Virus record (IMG/VR): IMGVR_UViG_3300035492_000062
Location: 32,925-96,924 of that record
Length of the DNA stretch: 64,000 nt
DNA from: a virus
Strand: one strand, 5' to 3'
Shown piece by piece: positions 3,580 through 56,738 of this stretch. Numbering within the stretch: position 1 is the stretch's first letter; the number at the start of each line of letters is the position of its first letter. A program made the translations under genes and the position numbers. A model generated the notes under the pieces. The model was not told the DNA's origin, searched no databases, and saw only the letters and a program-made list of their open reading frames with translations.

Positions 3580-4566
3580 ATGAGTACTAAAGTAGATCAA
3601 GCATTAAAACAGCGTATCTGGGAATTTATGCTGTCAGAAGCCAAACGTCAAAATATTGATGTTCTGGCTGTAAACAAAACAAAGACTGCCAATCAGTTTG
3701 GTGTGTCTCCTCGGACTGTTGGTCGTGTAGTAGATCAGTTCTATGGTAAAGATAACAGTGACCAAGAGTCTACAGTCACTGTAGAAGAAACACCAAAAGC
3801 AGTCACTGTAGAAGATGTAGTAAAAGTATCAGAGAAGAAATCTAAAGTCTCTGTAATCAACTGGACAATTACACAAAACAGTGTGCTGTTGACGTTATCT
3901 GATGGTAATAACGCATCAATCACCAAAGATAACACGAATTTTGGTGAAGTTTGTAAACAACTGCTTGCCGGAAATACTGATGTAATGGCACTGGTTAATC
4001 CAGCCAAAAACTTTGAGTATGAATATGGTAACATCAAAGTGGTCGAAGATGGTGTGTTATTTGCTGGTAATAAACTGCCGAAAGAGATCGCATTCTTTGT
4101 TATTGATGCAGTTCGTGCTGGTAAACAGGCAGATGTGGAACGATTCGCGAAGTTCCTGAATAATTTGTTAGAGAACCCAAGCTATCGAGCAGTACAGACT
4201 TTATATCCGTTCCTGAAACATAATGACATCCAAATCACTGATGATGGAATGATCTTGGCTTGGAAACGAATTACAGGTGATTTTAAAGACTGCTACACTA
4301 AAACCATTGATAACACTATTGGTACTGTGGTCAAGGTTCGCAGGAATGAAGTGGAAGAAGACCCAACTCGTACTTGTGCAAAGGGTCTACATTTGTGTGC
4401 TAAACATTACTTGTCTAGTTATAGAGGTGATGTTGTAGTACAATGTTTGCTGAATCCTCGTGATGTTGTGGCCGTACCACACGATTATAACGGTTCTAAA
4501 CTTCGGTGCTCAGAATACAAAGTTTTAAAAGATGTAACTGTTGAATGGGAAGCTGGTAAGTTATAA
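3580..4566 (+). CDS. rIIB: rIIB-like protein
   Basis: N-terminal HTH (FGVSPRTVGRV); NPSYRAVQTLYPFL, ITDDGMILAWK, CAKGLHLC, DVVAVPHDYNGSKLRCSEYKV. Confidence 0.85.
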   Translation: MSTKVDQALKQRIWEFMLSEAKRQNIDVLAVNKTKTANQFGVSPRTVGRVVDQFYGKDNSDQESTVTVEETPKAVTVEDVVKVSEKKSKVSVINWTITQNSVLLTLSDGNNASITKDNTNFGEVCKQLLAGNTDVMALVNPAKNFEYEYGNIKVVEDGVLFAGNKLPKEIAFFVIDAVRAGKQADVERFAKFLNNLLENPSYRAVQTLYPFLKHNDIQITDDGMILAWKRITGDFKDCYTKTIDNTIGTVVKVRRNEVEEDPTRTCAKGLHLCAKHYLSSYRGDVVVQCLLNPRDVVAVPHDYNGSKLRCSEYKVLKDVTVEWEAGKL

Positions 4567-4582
4567 ATAAACTCCCTCCTCT

Positions 4583-7942: not shown

Positions 7943-7966
7943 TGGAGCATGGACGCTCCATATTTT
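7943..7966 (+). terminator. Hairpin between nrdA and nrdB
   Basis: TGGAGC-atggac-GCTCCA then TATTTT. Confidence 0.4.
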
Positions 7967-7978
7967 AGAGGTTTAAAA

Positions 7979-9115
7979 ATGACGCGAAGTATATTCCCAC
8001 TGGAAAACAAAGACTACACCAAAGAATTTATGTTCTTTGGTACTGAACCAAACATCAACAGAAACGATGTTATGCGGTTCCCAAAATTTAATGACTTTAT
8101 AGAACAACAACAAGGATATTTCTGGCGTCCGAGTGAAATTGATTGTACGAAAGATCGTGTTGACTATATGAATATGGAAGAGCACGAAAAGCACATTTTT
8201 ATTAGCAACATAAAGTACCAGAGTCTGTTGGACTCTGTTCAAGGTCGAGCACCATTGATGGTGCTAGGGCAAATTGTATCACTACCTGAGTTGGAAACAT
8301 GGTTAACAACGTGGCAATTCTCAGAAACCATACATGAACAGAGCTACACTCACATTCTCAGAAATGTGTTTCGCGATCCATCTCACGTTTTTGATACAGT
8401 ACTTGAGATCCCAGAAATTATCCAGCGAGCAAAGGATGTGACTCGATATTATGACGAGTTGTATGAAGATGTGGTGCGATATAATGCTGGTCTTGCAGTT
8501 GATATGTACCAGATGAAAACTAAATTGTTTAAATGTATTGTGGTGGTTTACTTCTTAGAAGCAATCAGATTCTACGGTTCATTTGTATCCACATTTAGTT
8601 TTGCTAAGCGTGGAGTGATGGAGGGACAAGGTAAGATCATGCAACTTATCGCACGAGACGAGTTCCTCCATCAAGGTTCAACACATTATATGCTCACTCG
8701 ATGGTATGCTGGTCTGGACGATCCCGAAATGACAAAAATTGCAAAAGAGAACGTTCATTTCGTATTAGATACTGGTAAAGAGGTTGGAGATCAAGAAAAA
8801 CTATGGGCAAATTATTTGTTTCAACTTGGTAGTATTATCGGCCTGAATGCTCAAATTTTGCAGCAATATCAGATGTGGTTAACTAACAAACGAATAGAGG
8901 ATTTGTTAAAACCAAAAATTCAGGGAAGAGAGTTTGACTTTGGTTATGTTCCGGTGTATCCTGATGTTAAAACTAACCCTATTCCATGGGTAAATGAGTT
9001 TTTAGAATCTGATAACGTACAAGTAGCGCCGCAGGAAACTGAGATTAGTACTTATATGGTAGGACAAATTAATGCAGATGTTGATGATGAATTTTTAGGA
9101 GAACTTGAACTGTGA
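7979..9115 (+). CDS. nrdB: Class Ia ribonucleotide reductase beta subunit
   Basis: FWRPSEID, QSLLDSVQGR, FSETIHEQSY, EAIRFYGSF, IARDEFLH, APQETEISTY; start taken at the ATG behind the GAGG RBS. Confidence 0.95.
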   Translation: MTRSIFPLENKDYTKEFMFFGTEPNINRNDVMRFPKFNDFIEQQQGYFWRPSEIDCTKDRVDYMNMEEHEKHIFISNIKYQSLLDSVQGRAPLMVLGQIVSLPELETWLTTWQFSETIHEQSYTHILRNVFRDPSHVFDTVLEIPEIIQRAKDVTRYYDELYEDVVRYNAGLAVDMYQMKTKLFKCIVVVYFLEAIRFYGSFVSTFSFAKRGVMEGQGKIMQLIARDEFLHQGSTHYMLTRWYAGLDDPEMTKIAKENVHFVLDTGKEVGDQEKLWANYLFQLGSIIGLNAQILQQYQMWLTNKRIEDLLKPKIQGREFDFGYVPVYPDVKTNPIPWVNEFLESDNVQVAPQETEISTYMVGQINADVDDEFLGELEL

Positions 9116-13462: not shown

Positions 13463-13470
13463 TATAAATA
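13463..13470 (+). promoter_or_regulatory. T4-type late promoter
   Basis: Exact TATAAATA 24 nt before the ATG at 13495, RBS AAGGAG. Confidence 0.75.
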
Positions 13471-20459: not shown

Positions 20460-21005
20460 TTGATGAAACATCTTCTCATTGGTGCTGTTCTAAGTCTATC
20501 TTCTTTCTTCTCTCATGGAGTAGTATCGTGTGAAAGGTGGGATAACCTAGACCTAGAACAGAAAGCAAATCTTCATGTTGCTTATTTTCTTGGTAGTGAA
20601 CATGATTTAGGGTGGACATTATCTGCCATAGCTTTGGCTGAGTCGAACGCTGGTAAATGGAGACTGAACTACCAATCAAATGATTTTGGTTTGTTTCAGA
20701 TAAACATGGCTACAGCAAGTAGCATTCTTTCAATCACAAATCGTTATAAATTGTTTGAATTGGCTGAAAGATTGCTGTATGATGATGTTCTTGGTGCTGA
20801 TTTGGCGATAGATGTACTAGAACACTTCCGCAGAGGAAGAATTTTAACAAACAGTGTTTACAAAGAAATGATAATGAGCTACAATCGTGGTTATAGATGG
20901 AAACACGATAAAGCAGAGAGAAAGAATGCAGAAGCGTATTATCATCGTGTGCAAACAAACGTCAGAATGTTGAAGAAATGTTCAGACATTAACAATCAAA
21001 GTTAA
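20460..21005 (+). CDS. SLT-family lytic transglycosylase with signal peptide (T4 Vs.1-like)
   Basis: AIALAES, DFGLFQIN, SYNRG; hydrophobic N-terminus. Confidence 0.7.
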   Translation: MMKHLLIGAVLSLSSFFSHGVVSCERWDNLDLEQKANLHVAYFLGSEHDLGWTLSAIALAESNAGKWRLNYQSNDFGLFQINMATASSILSITNRYKLFELAERLLYDDVLGADLAIDVLEHFRRGRILTNSVYKEMIMSYNRGYRWKHDKAERKNAEAYYHRVQTNVRMLKKCSDINNQS

Positions 21006-21019
21006 AAGGGGAATAAACC

Positions 21020-21646
21020 ATGGCTACAAAAATGACATTGACTCGTGCACTTGCTAAACTGAAAACCTTAGATGCACGTATCGCTTCTGCGGAAGTAGGT
21101 AAACTGTTTGCATACAAAATTGGTGCTCGATTGGCTAATACCAATCTATCTGAGCAAGATTTTTCAAAAACAGTCCAATCAACTTGGGATGAGGTTAATG
21201 ACTTGGTTCAGCAACGAGTCAAGATCAAATCTGCTATCATGAAGGCAAACTCAGAGACTTATCTGACTGTTAATGGTGAATCTATGACTATTGCTGATGC
21301 AGTTGCTCGTAAAGAGTTCTCGACAGTCCATCGTACACTGTTGACTAAGACGATTACAACTCACAATACAATGCTACGAGATGTCACCAAACACAACCAA
21401 GGCGTTTCTGAGCGTCTTGATAAGATGTTGGAGTCTTTGGTTGGTAAAGATAAGAAAATGGCTGAGGGTGAGTTTGAGGCTGTTTCTAAGCCATTCTTAG
21501 CTCAAAATGAGGCTACCTTGTTAGATCCTCATGCAGTGTACAAGAAAGCTGGAACACAGCTAGAAGAGTTAGAGAAGTTTTTGGCTGAAGTTGATTTCTG
21601 CTTGTCGGAGGTTAATGCTAAAACTGAGATTGAAGTTGCCATTTAA
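21020..21646 (+). CDS. Alpha-helical/coiled-coil conserved phage protein upstream of the ncRNA candidate
   Basis: MTLTRALAKLKTLDARI...IKSAIMKANSET...MTIADAVARK...VDFCLSEVNAKTEI. Confidence 0.75.
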   Translation: MATKMTLTRALAKLKTLDARIASAEVGKLFAYKIGARLANTNLSEQDFSKTVQSTWDEVNDLVQQRVKIKSAIMKANSETYLTVNGESMTIADAVARKEFSTVHRTLLTKTITTHNTMLRDVTKHNQGVSERLDKMLESLVGKDKKMAEGEFEAVSKPFLAQNEATLLDPHAVYKKAGTQLEELEKFLAEVDFCLSEVNAKTEIEVAI

Positions 21647-21651
21647 TCTCA

Positions 21652-21659
21652 GGTAAATA
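21652..21659 (+). promoter_or_regulatory. Late-type promoter (NNTAAATA) directly before the ncRNA candidate
   Basis: GGTAAATA ending 3 nt before the 5' arm of the closing stem. Confidence 0.45.
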
Positions 21660-21662
21660 AAT

Positions 21663-21968
21663 TTGCAATTGTTTTGGTGAATTTCCTAAACAACTGAGCG
21701 TTAAGGGGAAGCTGCTCTTGAAGAAACCCCAAACCAACTATTTAATGGTATTTAAATAAAGATAGTGGTGTCAGTGAGTGTATCTCACGACATCACCCAA
21801 CTCTTAAAGTTTAAATTTTAACCATGAAAGTTGATAAGTTCAAATCTGAAACATTAACCTTTAAAACGGCAAAATGGTAAAGATGAAAACTCATAAAATC
21901 CGGTGGTTATGCAAATGAGGTGTAGGTTATGACCTTGGAAGGCTATCCGGCAACCAAACTGATTGCAA
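21663..21968 (+). ncRNA. Candidate structured non-coding RNA (~305 nt)
   Basis: No ORF; 21663-21678 TTGCAATTGTTTTGGT pairs with 21953-21968 ACCAAACTGATTGCAA; internal hairpins; A-rich quasi-periodic tract; terminator follows. Confidence 0.65.
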
Positions 21969-21979
21969 CCTTTTCAAAT

Positions 21980-22009
21980 CAAAAGCCTGAGAAATATCTC
22001 AGGCTTTTG
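21980..22009 (+). terminator. Rho-independent terminator
   Basis: CAAAAGCCTGAGA-aata-TCTCAGGCTTTTG, 13-bp perfect stem. Confidence 0.85.
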
Positions 22010-40621: not shown

Positions 40622-41022
40622 AGCATTACCATTGAGATTATTTGATTTACAGAAGTATACTTGTGCTGAGCTAGTATTGAAAGATTTTGTTTTAATCTTA
40701 TAACCAGAAGTTGGTTATCCTCATCAAGAATGTTCCCATTCATCAGTGCGATCTTAAGAACATTTTTCGGTGTGCGATACATAACACCTCTCAAATTTGG
40801 CGACAATAAGACCGCAAAACCAATCTCACGAATTAGTTTTTCATCATTCTCTTTACTCATTGCGTTTAGTACTGTTACACGCAAATCCCTATCAAAACAT
40901 AGACATTCTGATGTTGCTATATCAACAGACTCTTCACCAATCCTACAAAAATGTATTACAACACGCATCTCCAATGGAGAAAGTAAGTGATTTTCAGATT
41001 GTTTTGCCATTTTTGACCTCAA
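40618..41022 (-). CDS. Hypothetical protein
   Basis: ORF coupled to primase. Confidence 0.55.
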   Translation of the reverse strand: MRSKMAKQSENHLLSPLEMRVVIHFCRIGEESVDIATSECLCFDRDLRVTVLNAMSKENDEKLIREIGFAVLLSPNLRGVMYRTPKNVLKIALMNGNILDEDNQLLVIRLKQNLSILAQHKYTSVNQIISMVML

Positions 41023-41055
41023 TAAATAAATGGTATGTGAGAGAAGAGGACTTCC

Positions 41056-41379
41056 ATGAGTGGTAATTTATTAGACATTATAGAGACAGAAGACAAAGTT
41101 TACAACTGTGTTATTGATTATATTTCAAAGCGCCAGATCATAATTTATGACCTGACTGGGATTAATGATGCGACTGTTAGATTATTGTTAATAAAATGGA
41201 AGATGAACTTCCCCAATCTTAGATTTTCTATTTTTAAATCAATATATTATCCAAACGTACCACTTAACAAACCAGTCATTCTATCACTAAAATCAGTAAA
41301 ATATTGCAATCGTTGTCTTAAACCCACCAAGCCAAAACGCTCGGTGGTTAAGATTGTTGCTTCACCAGACAATGCCTGA
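41056..41379 (+). CDS. Hypothetical protein, lone opposite-strand gene
   Basis: GAGG RBS; AATAAATA late-like motif upstream. Confidence 0.6.
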   Translation: MSGNLLDIIETEDKVYNCVIDYISKRQIIIYDLTGINDATVRLLLIKWKMNFPNLRFSIFKSIYYPNVPLNKPVILSLKSVKYCNRCLKPTKPKRSVVKIVASPDNA

Positions 41380-41970
41380 TGGATTTTTAAGTTTGTTCAT
41401 TACAGCCACAATCATAATAGCATACGCTATAGCGTGAGATTTTTTAAAATACGCTGTACCGTCTAATGGCCTACTGTATAACCTCTTCCTTACTGCAACT
41501 TGATTCTTTCTGTACTGGGGTATTAACCCAATCTTTGCAGGACGAATCAGAGCAATCATATCTGCAAGCTCTTCCACATTAGTCGGTTGGATTTTAACCA
41601 CAGTCTCATAGTGATTAGCTATGTGTGGTAGTCTCTGTACAAACAATTCATCCATCAACCAGTTCCAATCTGGCTCTGCTTCTGCTGCCCTAAGAACCTC
41701 GGTCTTTGTTTTGAAAATGTCATATGCTTTGTTGGTTAGAATATCCACCTTAGAAAATCCAACCTCATCCCCATACTTGTAGTCAAACGCACATAACCCA
41801 GTCACCGGATCAATTGGCACTGGCTCCAAATAAACGCCAGATGGATGTGGTAGGATTCTATGGGTCTCTTCGTTATAGACCATAGCACGAGTGCCATAGT
41901 CTTCTCTATTACACTGAGTGTTTACGTCTATGTCTACGTCAAAACTACGTCTCGCTAAGGACATACTCAA
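41362..41970 (-). CDS. DNA polymerase III alpha (DnaE)-like C-terminal fragment: catalytic palm/fingers
   Basis: FDVDIDV, HPSGVYL, KVDIL, IALIRPA, FKKSHAIAYA. Confidence 0.85.
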   Translation of the reverse strand: MSMSLARRSFDVDIDVNTQCNREDYGTRAMVYNEETHRILPHPSGVYLEPVPIDPVTGLCAFDYKYGDEVGFSKVDILTNKAYDIFKTKTEVLRAAEAEPDWNWLMDELFVQRLPHIANHYETVVKIQPTNVEELADMIALIRPAKIGLIPQYRKNQVAVRKRLYSRPLDGTAYFKKSHAIAYAIMIVAVMNKLKNPSGIVW

Positions 41971-42994: not shown

Positions 42995-43420
42995 CTACTC
43001 CCTGTTTTCAAAGAACTTGGTTATTTGTGCTACTTCTTCTTTGGTTAAAACTTCTTTATACTCAGCAGCATCAGAATGTGTTACATTGTAAAACTTTGCA
43101 ATCATGTCGATTTCTGGCGTCTTTTCTGCTTTACCTTGTTTCTTAAACGCATAACGAGTGCGACTAATGCCCCCATTTGCTGCTATAAACAACTTTAGAA
43201 GTAACCGTGGGTGTTTGGATAGACTAAACACTTTATCAGGCACAGTATGCGCTACAGATAGCGTATGGATAGGTCTAACCGCTTTGTCTGTTGGTTGCCA
43301 CATGAGAAGAACATATGGTGACAGTTTCTTTACCTCTTCGTCAGACATATCATCAACATGACTAAGATCACCAGCATTCATTTTATTAAAAAAATCGAAA
43401 AGGTCTGAGTTGTTTGACAT
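42995..43420 (-). CDS. Clamp loader small subunit (gp62-like)
   Basis: DLFDFF...LSPYVLLMW...HPRLLLKL...IAKFYNV...A.EY; near gp44. Confidence 0.55.
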   Translation of the reverse strand: MSNNSDLFDFFNKMNAGDLSHVDDMSDEEVKKLSPYVLLMWQPTDKAVRPIHTLSVAHTVPDKVFSLSKHPRLLLKLFIAANGGISRTRYAFKKQGKAEKTPEIDMIAKFYNVTHSDAAEYKEVLTKEEVAQITKFFENRE

Positions 43421-43429
43421 AATATTATC

Positions 43430-43984
43430 CTAAAACCGATTCAGAATCTCTTGCTTGATTCTATCATCAGTGTGCAATTCTGCAACTTTTTTAGCGTGTT
43501 TCTGTTTTCTTTCAATCCAAGCAGCAACAGCCTTTTCTTCTGTATCAAAATACCCAACATGTTCTTGGACTACTGTAAACGGGTTTGAGCATCTGACATG
43601 AAACTTCTCTGATTGTTTTTGTTTCGTAAGACCAAGATGATTGCAGACTCCGATCTTAAACTCGGTGTTCTTGATGAAATGGTGAGTCGTTTTATCAAGA
43701 AATACCACAGTTTCTTCTGAATAATGAGTACCATCACCAAACAATACATTGTTTAGAACAAAATCTTCTTGGTAGTTTTCATCAAACCATTTCTTAAAAT
43801 TTGAGAATATCAGCCAATCAGGACTCATTGTATAGCCTGCATCTGGTTTGTGGTAGCACCGCTTCAGGATATTGCACCATGCTTTGTATGCTTTGCAGTA
43901 TACAATCTTACCACGTTCTATCCATTGTGTTGGTGTTGGGATATCTTTCACACCAACACCATAAAATCTAACACGCTTCGTCAT
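43430..43984 (-). CDS. HNH-type homing endonuclease-like protein (paralog of 562-1180), possibly degenerate
   Basis: YGVG...YKAWCNILKRCY...W..FSNFKKW...HYSEETVVF...CSNPF...VGYFDTEE.A..AW..RK. Confidence 0.65.
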   Translation of the reverse strand: MTKRVRFYGVGVKDIPTPTQWIERGKIVYCKAYKAWCNILKRCYHKPDAGYTMSPDWLIFSNFKKWFDENYQEDFVLNNVLFGDGTHYSEETVVFLDKTTHHFIKNTEFKIGVCNHLGLTKQKQSEKFHVRCSNPFTVVQEHVGYFDTEEKAVAAWIERKQKHAKKVAELHTDDRIKQEILNRF

Positions 43985-56680: not shown

Positions 56681-56688
56681 TATAAATA
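56681..56688 (+). promoter_or_regulatory. Late promoter for the homing endonuclease
   Basis: Exact TATAAATA. Confidence 0.65.
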
Positions 56689-56730: not shown

Positions 56731-56738
56731 TATTTATA
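56731..56738 (-). promoter_or_regulatory. Late promoter for the uvsY-uvsW block
   Basis: TATTTATA on + equals TATAAATA on -. Confidence 0.6.

What the first reader, a model, noticed from the sequence alone, without database searches (positions are those of the whole stretch)
21020..22009. Structured ~305-nt ncRNA candidate with own promoter and terminator, behind a helical protein: possible ribonucleoprotein system
Seen: after the 208-aa helical ORF come a late-type GGTAAATA (21652-21659) and a 5' arm TTGCAATTGTTTTGGT (21663) complementary to ACCAAACTGATTGCAA (21953-21968; 15 of 16 pairs including two G-U). Internal hairpins include GGTGTCAGTGAG-tgtat-CTCACGACATCACC, TATTTAA-tggtat-TTAAATA and GGGG...CCCC, plus a possible AACCA/TGGTT inner closing helix. 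A 13-bp terminator follows. This is the largest ORF-free stretch in the window. I do not recognise it as a tRNA, tmRNA, RNase P RNA or other named RNA. Inference: a stand-alone ncRNA that works with the adjacent protein, whose N-terminus loosely recalls the DIP1984-like pattern (weak recollection).
Basis: partly seen in the sequence, partly recalled or inferred. Interest (0 to 1): 0.85.

Follow-up and report, generated by a model that had tools for sequence, protein, structure and literature searches.

The report
New phage RNA with seven-base rail
Behind a small helical gene of unknown function lies a real, uncatalogued folded RNA of about 306 bases with a row of seven-base units; the same gene-RNA pair occurs in many large phages, including the model phage T5, so the two probably form an undescribed protein-RNA particle.

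Summary
Window 21663-21968 (+) encodes a roughly 306-nt structured RNA that matches no Rfam family, tRNA or tmRNA.

- **Co-inheritance:** The RNA travels with the upstream 208-aa gene (phrog_1491; fold like DIP1984, PDB 3KDQ). A covariance model of its 3' domain finds one copy beside the gene in 76 of 80 loci, always on the gene's strand. In two loci the RNA lies upstream of the gene. One bacterial chromosome carries the pair alone.
- **Structure:** The closing stem and inner helices covary strongly.
- **Heptad rail:** The centre holds about 6-13 AAAGNUY units spaced 7 nt apart. It is A-rich and cannot pair with itself.
- **Phage T5:** The partner gene is T5.085 and the RNA is unannotated. RNA-seq contigs break at its predicted ends.

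Best reading (about 0.55): copies of the self-associating protein line up on the rail, as HutP and TRAP do on their RNAs, forming a new ribonucleoprotein. Its role is unknown and may involve tRNA.

Not supported: a separate promoter and the AACCA/TGGTT helix.

Earlier notes of this scan describe the same class on other DNA. I found no paper on it.

The parts
21020..21646 (+). 208-aa helical protein, phrog_1491, DIP1984-like fold; the T5 homologue is T5.085
   Evidence: phrog_1491 E 1.8e-49. AF2 model pLDDT 91. 3KDQ is the best PDB match: Foldseek E 6e-4 and VIA-align Z 10.3. NF038048 scores only 18.5 bits against a cut-off of 70. Self-association is predicted with ipSAE 0.61 against 0.01 for the best control. 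The family has 3629 cluster representatives at 50% identity.
21650..21659 (+). CAGGTAAATA, aligned with TATAAATA of the close relatives; a possible promoter element, unproven
   Evidence: Alignment A1. TATAAATA occurs 9 times in the window against 3.9 expected, and 4 of these lie upstream of genes. In relatives the motif overlaps the stop codon.
21663..21678 (+). P1 closing stem, 5' arm, followed by GAA
   Evidence: Pairs with 21953-21968. Compensatory changes occur in L003-L006. Across the family the stem is 12-23 bp and its sequence differs between members.
21690..21702 (+). ACAACUGAGCGUU block, invariant in the five closest sequences (junction between P1 and P2)
   Evidence: Alignment A1 and A2
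21705..21730 (+). P2 hairpin GGGG...CCCC with invariant GCUGCUCU in the loop
   Evidence: The equivalent hairpin shows many compensatory pairs in the L007 group.
21739..21758 (+). P3 hairpin with UGGUAU loop (variable region)
   Evidence: The stem sequence changes while pairing is kept in L004 and L006
21767..21797 (+). P4 hairpin (variable region). In 11 of 49 relatives this region holds a canonical tRNA T-arm hairpin, and in three loci a whole tRNA.
21803..21898 (+). Heptad rail: about 13 A-rich units with a 7-8 nt period (family consensus AAAGNUY)
   Evidence: Conserved A columns 7 nt apart. Across the family AAAG occurs 331 times against 106 expected, at spacings of 7 (76 cases), 8 (24) and 14 (39). 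Unit logo. Composition is A 41% and U 27%, with AAAG 254 against CUUU 28, so the tract cannot self-pair.
21896..21952 (+). 3' domain: AAAAUCC; helix P6 (21900-21903 with 21947-21950); hairpin P7 (21917-21921 with 21932-21936); then GGCAA, which is GGCUG in most relatives
   Evidence: Covariance model R1 gives a single hit in the 64-kb window, at 21877-21955, E 3.9e-7. In the model alignment 95.9% of cells are paired, against 67% in shuffles and 30-50% with slid partners, and 165 cells changed on both sides against 45.
21953..21968 (+). P1 closing stem, 3' arm
21980..22009 (+). Intrinsic-terminator-like hairpin (13 bp, loop AAUA) followed by a U run
   Evidence: MFE fold. A terminator-like hairpin with a U run lies 16-41 nt after P1 in 24 of 44 relatives, and a tRNA abuts the RNA instead in 5.

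Best explanation
Window 21663-21968 encodes a structured non-coding RNA of about 306 nt belonging to an uncatalogued family that is the obligate genomic partner of the adjacent DIP1984-like protein (phrog_1491; T5.085 in phage T5).

Shown:
- The RNA has a long closing stem (P1), a 5' domain (P2 plus variable hairpins), a central A-rich rail of AAAGNUY units with a 7-nt period that cannot base-pair with itself, and a conserved 3' domain (AAAUCC-P6-P7-GGCUG).
- The helices covary, and the RNA lies next to the protein gene in nearly every locus examined.
- In T5, RNA-seq contigs break at ends that fit a discrete RNA.

Inferred:
- The protein, which is predicted to self-associate through its long helical hairpin, binds the rail one unit per protomer or per dimer. 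The conserved basic residues (R9, K15, R20, R66, K70, K98) are candidates for the contacts, but this was not tested.
- The RNA would thus line up a defined number of protein copies, the way HutP and TRAP read evenly spaced triplets, giving a ribonucleoprotein particle.

Speculative: because the pair so often sits in or beside phage tRNA clusters and some members embed a T-arm or a whole tRNA, the particle may act in tRNA or translation biology during infection. Its cellular role is unknown.
For: Real RNA:
- No Rfam, tRNA or tmRNA match.
- Fold z-scores of -3.0 and -4.5.
- P1 covaries.
- In P6 and P7, 95.9% of cells are paired against 67% in shuffles, and 165 cells changed on both sides against 45.

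Linkage to the protein:
- Model R1 finds exactly one hit next to the gene, on its strand, in 76 of 80 loci.
- It finds one hit in the 64-kb window and one in a 4.4-Mb Gottfriedia genome, beside a solitary copy of the gene among ordinary chromosomal genes.
- The order is reversed (RNA before the gene) in L088 and L090.

Rail as a protein-binding array:
- AAAG is enriched threefold with 7-nt spacing.
- It is not self-complementary, and covariation does not support pairing in the centre.
- The unit stays AAAGNUY with the protein clade in phages of hosts from Pseudomonas and E. coli to Bacillus.
- Distant DIP1984-like genes of Bacillales carry RNAs of the same build but with ACC or ACG units.

Other support:
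- Protein self-association: ipSAE 0.61 against a best control of 0.01. That mark was reached by 20 of 30 proteins solved as pairs and 1 of 23 solved as single chains.
- Precedent for a 7-nt register: the HutP hexamer reads XAG with 4-nt spacers (PMC2425495).
- Expression: in T5 RNA libraries, adapter-joined ends lie at L113 8330 (3 nt after the T5.085 stop codon) and at 7980, and a separate 335-nt contig covers 7965-8299.
Against: - No experiment or model here shows the protein touching the RNA.
- The protein is near neutral (median pI 6.7), not basic.
- Thermodynamic folding gives the rail a pairing probability (0.57) only slightly below the flanks (0.64).
- The covariance-model alignment is fitted to the structure it tests.
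- The T5 expression evidence rests on assembled contigs, which cannot give abundance or strand.
- One T5 contig runs continuously from T5.085 into the RNA, so the RNA may be a processed 3' part of the mRNA rather than a separate transcript.
- Bona fide NF038048 genes (L128-L131) lack any such RNA.
- The link to tRNA is contextual only: tRNAs lie within 1.5 kb in 30 of 81 loci, and none lies in this window.
Confidence: 0.55

Rival explanations
1. Decoy or sponge for a host factor. The rail of AAAGNUY units, with T-arm-like modules in some members, soaks up a host RNA-binding protein or ribonuclease, for example an A/U-specific endoribonuclease or a tRNA-directed defence nuclease. The adjacent protein would only stabilise, chaperone or process the RNA.
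For: Many copies of one short single-stranded motif are the hallmark of sponge RNAs such as CsrB and RsmZ (own knowledge). The pair often lies next to tRNA genes, and some members embed T-arms or tRNAs. T5's neighbouring region is known to hold anti-defence genes such as Rad and tRNA-Tyr (bioRxiv 10.1101/2023.03.15.532788).
Against: The unit is constant across phages of very different hosts (Pseudomonadota and Bacillota) and follows the protein clade instead. Distant cellular relatives have the same build with other units. This fits a cognate partner better than a conserved host target. The pair also occurs in bacterial chromosomes.
Confidence: 0.17
2. tRNA-mimic or Y-RNA-like adaptor. The RNA is a scaffold in the manner of bacterial YrlA, with a long 5'/3' stem and a tRNA-like module, that brings tRNA-processing, repair or quality-control enzymes to substrates. 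The rail would tether an effector.
For: The long closing stem and T-arm hairpins occur in 11 of 49 members against 1.3 expected. Whole tRNAs are embedded in L055, L057 and L069. In five loci the RNA's 3' end abuts a tRNA. One cellular relative lies next to an NFACT/RqcH gene.
Against: There is no YrlA or other Rfam hit. No TROVE/Ro60 gene lies beside it. The T-arm is missing in most members, including this window. tRNA adjacency is seen in only 37% of loci.
Confidence: 0.1
3. Toxin-antitoxin-like pair, in which the RNA neutralises or is processed by the protein (type III logic). The pair would act as a selfish or defence module.
For: It is a two-part protein plus repeat-bearing RNA module that can stand alone in a bacterial chromosome.
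Against: The repeats are 7 nt, not about 36 nt, and they sit inside a large folded RNA. Tandem Repeats Finder finds nothing. The RNA usually follows the gene rather than preceding it. The fold is a helical hairpin, not a ToxN/Kid-type nuclease fold. The pair is found almost only in virulent phages: one hit among 185,579 species' genomes.
Confidence: 0.06
4. Cis-acting element of the neighbouring mRNAs: a 3'-UTR stabiliser or terminator complex of the upstream gene, or a leader for the downstream gene.
For: The T5 contig is continuous from T5.085 into the RNA. The RNA starts 0-35 nt after the stop codon in most loci.
Against: The element lies upstream of the gene in L088 and L090. The genes downstream of it differ between relatives. 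About 300 nt of covarying multi-domain structure with a sequence-conserved rail is far more than a terminator needs. In T5 contigs, adapter-joined fragment ends pile up 3 nt after the stop codon.
Confidence: 0.07

Closest known systems
DIP1984 family / Pfam DUF6847 (crystal structure 3KDQ, Corynebacterium diphtheriae; function unknown; often mislabelled 'septicolysin')
   Same: Same overall fold: a long helical hairpin with a small sheet formed by the termini. The match is Z 10.3 over 150 of 152 residues. Weak HMM matches exist (NF038048 E 0.0017; DUF6847 E 0.0044).
   Different: The window protein is longer (208 aa against about 150). It scores far below the family cut-off (18.5 bits against 70). 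Bona fide NF038048 genes sampled in Bacillales have no partner RNA. No paper gives the family a function.
HutP and its sites in the Bacillus subtilis hut terminator RNA
   Same: A protein oligomer reads a triplet (XAG) repeated with 4-nt spacers, a 7-nt register, on single-stranded RNA (PMC2425495). Read as AAG plus four bases, the AAAGNUY units have the same form.
   Different: HutP has an unrelated fold. It reads 3+3 units in an mRNA leader to prevent termination. Here 6-13 units sit inside a stand-alone RNA closed by a long stem, next to an unrelated helical protein.
TRAP and the trp leader (11 G/UAG triplets round an 11-subunit ring; own knowledge)
   Same: Evenly spaced triplets wrap or line up a homo-oligomer.
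   Different: The period there is 5-6 nt. The site is a regulatory leader, not a separate RNA. The protein fold is unrelated.
CsrB/RsmZ-type sponge RNAs (own knowledge)
   Same: A stand-alone RNA displays many copies of a short motif for one protein.
   Different: Those motifs are GGA in hairpin loops without a fixed register. The partner CsrA is encoded elsewhere, and the RNAs titrate a global regulator.
Bacterial Y RNAs (YrlA) with Ro60/Rsr
   Same: A long stem formed by the two ends, a tRNA-like module in some members, and a partner protein gene encoded beside the RNA.
   Different: No Rfam YrlA hit and no TROVE protein nearby. The RNA is three times longer and has a heptad rail. The T-arm is absent here and in most members.
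Stable RNAs of unknown function in phage tRNA clusters (T4 RNAs C and D, own knowledge; T5 rnaX, annotated in AY543070)
   Same: Phage-encoded, in or near tRNA clusters, function unknown.
   Different: rnaX lies at a different place in T5 (40848-41566, against 43063-43504 for this RNA). No partner protein or heptad rail is known to me for those RNAs.

Membership tests
Any Rfam 15 family (including RNase P RNA, tmRNA, 6S, SRP, pRNA, YrlA, T-box, GOLLD/ROOL) | Covariance-model score at or above the family's gathering threshold | tested here: not met
   No hit in the whole window. At E up to 10, only sub-threshold matches appear; most lie on the terminator and none exceeds 26 bits. Twelve diverse relatives' loci give only tRNA hits.
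tRNA / tmRNA | Cloverleaf, or tRNA-like domain with a tag reading frame, detectable by ARAGORN | tested here: not met
   No gene in the window. Some relatives embed or abut true tRNAs, but the RNA itself is not one.
phrog_1491 (protein) | Full-length HMM match | tested here: met
   E 1.8e-49, residues 1-207 of 208. The family label 'tail fiber protein' has no support in anything seen here.
DIP1984 family (NCBIfam NF038048 / Pfam DUF6847) | HMM score above the curated cut-off | tested here: not met
   18.5 bits against a cut-off of 70, and 17.4 against 27.
DIP1984 family (NCBIfam NF038048 / Pfam DUF6847) | Shared three-dimensional fold with 3KDQ | tested here: met
   Foldseek E 5.7e-4 with probability 1.0. 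VIA-align Z 10.3, against 7.5 for the next row.
Type III toxin-antitoxin (ToxIN-like) | Tandem direct repeats of about 34-36 nt upstream of a ToxN/AbiQ-fold endoribonuclease gene | tested here: not met
   No tandem repeat by TRF. The units are 7 nt and degenerate. The protein is a helical hairpin. The RNA usually lies downstream of the gene.
HutP/TRAP-type periodic triplet arrays | Evenly spaced conserved triplets on single-stranded RNA | tested here: met
   AAAG spacings of 7 (76 cases), 8 (24) and 14 (39); unit logo AAAGNUY; AAAG 254 against CUUU 28.
HutP/TRAP-type periodic triplet arrays | Partner with HutP or TRAP fold; array placed in an mRNA leader that controls termination | tested here: not met
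   The partner fold is DIP1984-like. The array sits inside a stand-alone RNA closed by P1.
Y RNA (YrlA) with Ro60 | Adjacent TROVE-domain gene and a tRNA-like domain in the RNA | tested here: not met
   No TROVE match in the neighbours. No T-arm in the window RNA; a T-arm occurs in 11 of 49 relatives.
Protein-RNA particle with the adjacent protein (the claim itself) | Direct, specific binding of the protein to the RNA | not testable with these tools
   Only co-inheritance, motif-clade correspondence and predicted protein self-association could be examined.

The most novel reading that the evidence does not exclude
The heptad-rail RNA is an assembly template or ruler that nucleates a ring or short filament of fixed size of the DIP1984-like protein. 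This would be a new class of ribonucleoprotein shared by bacteria and large virulent phages. In phages it would act on the tRNA pool, for example by shielding or managing phage tRNAs against tRNA-cleaving defence systems.
Probability: 0.2. Interest if true: 0.92.

Novelty: categorically new. Interest (0 to 1): 0.85.

Why it matters
If the reading holds, a conserved protein family of unknown function gains a first functional handle: a dedicated RNA partner. The family has a solved structure (3KDQ) and 3629 sequence clusters in public data. Phage T5, studied for seventy years, would carry an unannotated RNA of about 350 nt next to T5.085, which makes the question directly testable in a tractable system. 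A stand-alone RNA that displays a strict 7-nt rail for a helical protein is not among the known bacterial or phage RNA classes. Its frequent placement in phage tRNA clusters could bear on the open question of what phage tRNA regions do beyond codon supply.

Tried and rejected
- **Known RNA classes.** Rfam at gathering and relaxed thresholds, ARAGORN and Tandem Repeats Finder gave nothing that explains the RNA.
- **Searches that found little.** blastn of the window region against 50,697 phage records found no match. The search for related loci with the single protein found none. An exact DNA pattern found none in IMG/VR. A scan of one genome for each of 185,579 species found only Gottfriedia solisilvae.
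- **Methods that failed.** A global MAFFT alignment of 49 full-length RNAs was too gappy to use. Unrestricted RNAduplex over-extended the stems. I replaced it with anchored arms and cross-sequence controls.
- **Pairing of the rail.** Thermodynamic pairing probability was inconclusive (0.57 against 0.64). Motif counts and cluster-level covariation argue against pairing.
- **AACCA/TGGTT inner helix.** Not conserved.
- **Late promoter.** TATAAATA is only mildly enriched, and no sigma-70-like promoter lies upstream of the T5 RNA end.
- **RNA beside cellular DIP1984 genes.** Model R1 and the AAAG spacing found nothing. A motif-free lag-7 test then showed rails with other units behind the sub-threshold relatives.
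- **Literature.** Searches for DIP1984, T5.085, septicolysin, T5 non-coding RNA and phage tRNA-like anti-defence RNA found no description of this RNA or a function for the protein.
- **T5 genes that are not this one.** The anti-retron gene Rad (SP15 ORF75) is a different gene about 6 kb away; the partner here is SP15 ORF83. The DRT9 trigger T5.058 is also different.
- **PAK_P3 small RNAs.** They are about 100 nt and show no evident relation.
- **Expression in this phage.** No RNA runs hold the window's own phage, which comes from a tar-pit metagenome.
Full report
**What is in the window.**
The 208-aa ORF at 21020-21646 is followed by 478 nt without any ORF of 50 codons or more. This is the largest ORF-free stretch of the window at every threshold tried.
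- GGTAAATA at 21652-21659.
- The 5' arm at 21663-21678 and its complement at 21953-21968.
- Hairpins at 21705-21730, 21739-21758 and 21767-21797.
- A 13-bp terminator hairpin at 21980-22009.

The RNA alone folds better than all 100 shuffles (z -3.0; z -4.5 with the terminator). Rfam 15 gives no hit at gathering thresholds. At relaxed thresholds only sub-threshold matches appear, most on the terminator and none above 26 bits. ARAGORN finds no tRNA or tmRNA in the window.

**The element is conserved and covaries.**
The window is part of a 99-kb IMG/VR contig from a tar-pit metagenome. The closest homologues of the protein (55-59% identity) lie on four metagenomic contigs. All four have a gap of 410-455 nt behind the gene. 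These gaps align with the window over the whole RNA, share invariant blocks, and show compensatory changes in the closing stem.

More distant homologues (25-39% identity) also carry a gap of 320-490 nt with the same build. They include phage T5, Pseudomonas phage KIL1, Bacillus phage Z3 and one bacterial chromosome.

Among 66 non-identical downstream regions, about 50 have a closing stem of 12-23 bp. The stem starts about 0-35 nt after the stop codon. Its 5' arm is followed by GAAA and its 3' arm is preceded by GGCU or AGCU. Arm sequences differ between members. Forty-four of 66 are more stable than the 5th percentile of controls in which arms were paired with other members' 5' regions.

A covariance model of the 3' domain (R1, 82 positions) gave these results:
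- It hits 76 of 80 sources, once each, always on the strand of the protein gene.
- In its alignment 95.9% of cells are paired, against 67% in shuffles and 30-50% with slid partners.
- 165 cells show changes on both sides, against 45 in shuffles.

That alignment is fitted to the model, so these figures lean towards the structure. The independent MAFFT alignment already showed the same pairs.

**Linkage to the protein.**
- R1 has one hit in the 64-kb window, and one in the 4.4-Mb Gottfriedia solisilvae genome.
- In Gottfriedia the gene-RNA pair stands alone between ordinary chromosomal genes.
- In L088 and L090 the RNA lies upstream of the gene. Adjacency therefore survives a change of order, which argues against a mere 3' UTR.
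- The genes downstream of the RNA differ among close relatives.
- The protein family is large: 3629 cluster representatives at 50% identity reach E 1e-3 or better, and 654 of 50,697 phage records hold a homologue.
- It is nearly absent from cellular genomes: one hit among 185,579 species' genomes.

**The heptad rail.**
The centre of the RNA (window about 21803-21898) has conserved A columns 7 nt apart. Across 49 RNAs:
- AAAG occurs 331 times against 106 expected.
- AAAGCU occurs 90 times against 4.5, and UCAAAG 55 times against 5.4.
- Successive AAAG lie 7 (76 cases), 8 (24) or 14 (39) nt apart.
- The unit logo is AAAGNUY, with U at the sixth place in 80% of units, and the signal persists into the neighbouring units.
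- The tract is 41% A and 27% U and holds 254 AAAG against 28 CUUU, so most units cannot be paired within it.
- Cluster-level alignments give no covariation there, while P1, P2, P6 and P7 covary.

**The protein.**
- An AlphaFold model (pLDDT 91) shows three long helices and a small sheet made by both termini and a hairpin.
- The only standout structural match is 3KDQ, the C. diphtheriae protein of unknown function.
- The HMM scores are far below the family cut-offs, so I do not file it as a member.
- The 'tail fiber' label of phrog_1491 appears to be an annotation artefact.
- Four copies folded together gave a symmetric interface along the helices. The ipSAE was 0.61 against 0.01 for the best control. 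That mark was reached by 20 of 30 proteins solved as pairs and 1 of 23 solved as single chains. The model supports self-association; it does not show it.
- Conserved basic residues are R9, K15, R20, R66, K70 and K98. Overall the protein is near neutral.

**Expression.**
No RNA run holds the window's own phage. The T5 homologue is T5.085. Its RNA lies in the unannotated spacer at AY543070 43063-43504. None of the 60 sampled T5-like records (of 440 with a match) annotates an RNA there.

Thirteen RNA runs hold this stretch. Contigs from four of them were laid on T5, with these results:
- One RIP-seq run has an adapter joined exactly at L113 8330, which is 3 nt after the stop codon and 5-6 nt before P1. 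Short contigs of much higher depth lie there.
- That run also has a separate 335-nt contig covering 7965-8299.
- An rRNA-depleted run has an adapter joined at 7980, inside the 3' arm of P1.
- The contigs of the downstream gene end at 7943-7953.

These ends fit a discrete RNA of about 350 nt. Contigs cannot give abundance. One contig runs from T5.085 into the RNA, and no sigma-70-like promoter precedes the 5' end. The RNA may therefore be cut from the gene's transcript.

In the window, GGTAAATA aligns with TATAAATA of the four relatives, but there the motif overlaps the stop codon. The motif is only mildly enriched in the window. A separate promoter is therefore unproven.

**tRNA context.**
- Thirty of 81 loci have tRNA genes within 1.5 kb, all on the same strand.
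- Bacillus phage Z3 has 15 tRNAs directly upstream of the gene.
- In five loci a tRNA starts within a few bases of the end of P1, so RNase P would define the RNA's 3' end there.
- L055, L057 and L069 have a tRNA inside the 5' domain. The one in L057 scores 58 bits as a tRNA.
- A canonical T-arm hairpin occurs in 11 of 49 RNAs against 1.3 expected.
- The window RNA has none of these, and the window has no tRNA. The contig's three tRNAs lie outside the window.

**A wider class.**
Earlier notes of this scan describe DIP1984-like genes followed by heptad-rail RNAs on other DNA. I tested this in part. Among Bacillales genomes sampled around Gottfriedia, bona fide NF038048 genes L128-L131 show no such tract (L127 has a weak lag-7 signal about 340 nt downstream that I did not follow up). 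In contrast, six sub-threshold DIP1984/DUF6847-like genes (L132-L137) are each followed by:
- an RNA of about 170-200 nt closed by a 5'/3' stem;
- a 7-nt-periodic tract with a different unit (ACC at spacings 7, 7, 15, 7, 7 in L133 and L135; ACG in L132);
- then a terminator.

The register is thus constant while the unit changes with the protein clade. Within the phage clade, the unit is the same in phages of very different hosts. This pattern is what a cognate protein-RNA interface predicts. It speaks against a decoy for one host factor.

**Reading.**
- I regard as established that this is a real RNA of a new family and an obligate genomic partner of the protein.
- I regard as likely (about 0.55) that protein copies bind along the rail. 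A precedent is the 7-nt register in which the HutP hexamer reads XAG with 4-nt spacers (PMC2425495).
- I regard as open what the particle does.
- Rivals are a host-factor sponge, a Y-RNA-like adaptor for tRNA or RNA repair enzymes, a toxin-antitoxin-like pair, and a cis-acting element. They are listed with their tests.
- I found no paper that describes the RNA or gives the protein a function. Rad and T5.058, known T5 genes of the neighbourhood, are different genes.

Noticed in passing
L132-L137 (Bacillales chromosomes, loci), about 40-260 nt downstream of each DIP1984/DUF6847-like gene: Each gene is followed by an RNA of about 170-200 nt closed by a 5'/3' stem, with a 7-nt-periodic tract whose unit differs from the phage one (ACC in L133, L135; ACG in L132), then a terminator. 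The architecture is the same but the recognition unit differs.
   Followed up: partly
L132:2420-3421 (-), Gottfriedia solisilvae: The gene just upstream of the DIP1984-like gene, on the same strand, is an NFACT/RqcH homologue (ribosome quality control, binds tRNA). This is a single instance and is not seen in L133.
   Followed up: no
L057:2209-2282, L055:2213-2287, L069 (+54 to +143 after the stop codon): A tRNA (Ile-GAT in L057, 58 bits in Rfam) sits inside the 5' domain of the partner RNA, between P2 and the rail. If it were excised, the RNA would be left in two pieces held together by P1.
   Followed up: partly
L090:1087-1440 and L088:1140-1440: In these two loci the RNA lies upstream of the protein gene instead of downstream.
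   Followed up: yes
L096:3739-4042 (AY543070 40848-41566): T5 carries an annotated 'rnaX, stable RNA with unknown functions' about 2 kb downstream of the new RNA. It is a different locus and was not examined.
   Followed up: no
window 4562-4569 (+), 13463-13470 (+), 56681-56688 (+), 56731-56738 (-): Four of the nine TATAAATA copies in the window lie in short intergenic spacers directly upstream of genes on the matching strand. This hints at a T4-type late promoter motif in this phage.
   Followed up: partly
L127: about 130-170 nt downstream of a bona fide DIP1984 gene: A T-arm-like hairpin (AGAGG-UUCGACU-CCUCU) lies in the spacer behind the gene. It may belong to another partner RNA type.
   Followed up: no
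window 21644-21660 compared with L003-L006: The window protein ends 4-5 codons earlier than its four closest relatives. The homologous codons (TCT CAG GTA AAT AA) now lie in the spacer.
   Followed up: partly
window 20460-21005 (+); L006:169-702; L013:3252-3701: A lytic transglycosylase or cell-wall hydrolase gene (SLT / SleB-like) recurs near the pair in the window, in L006 and in T5.
   Followed up: no
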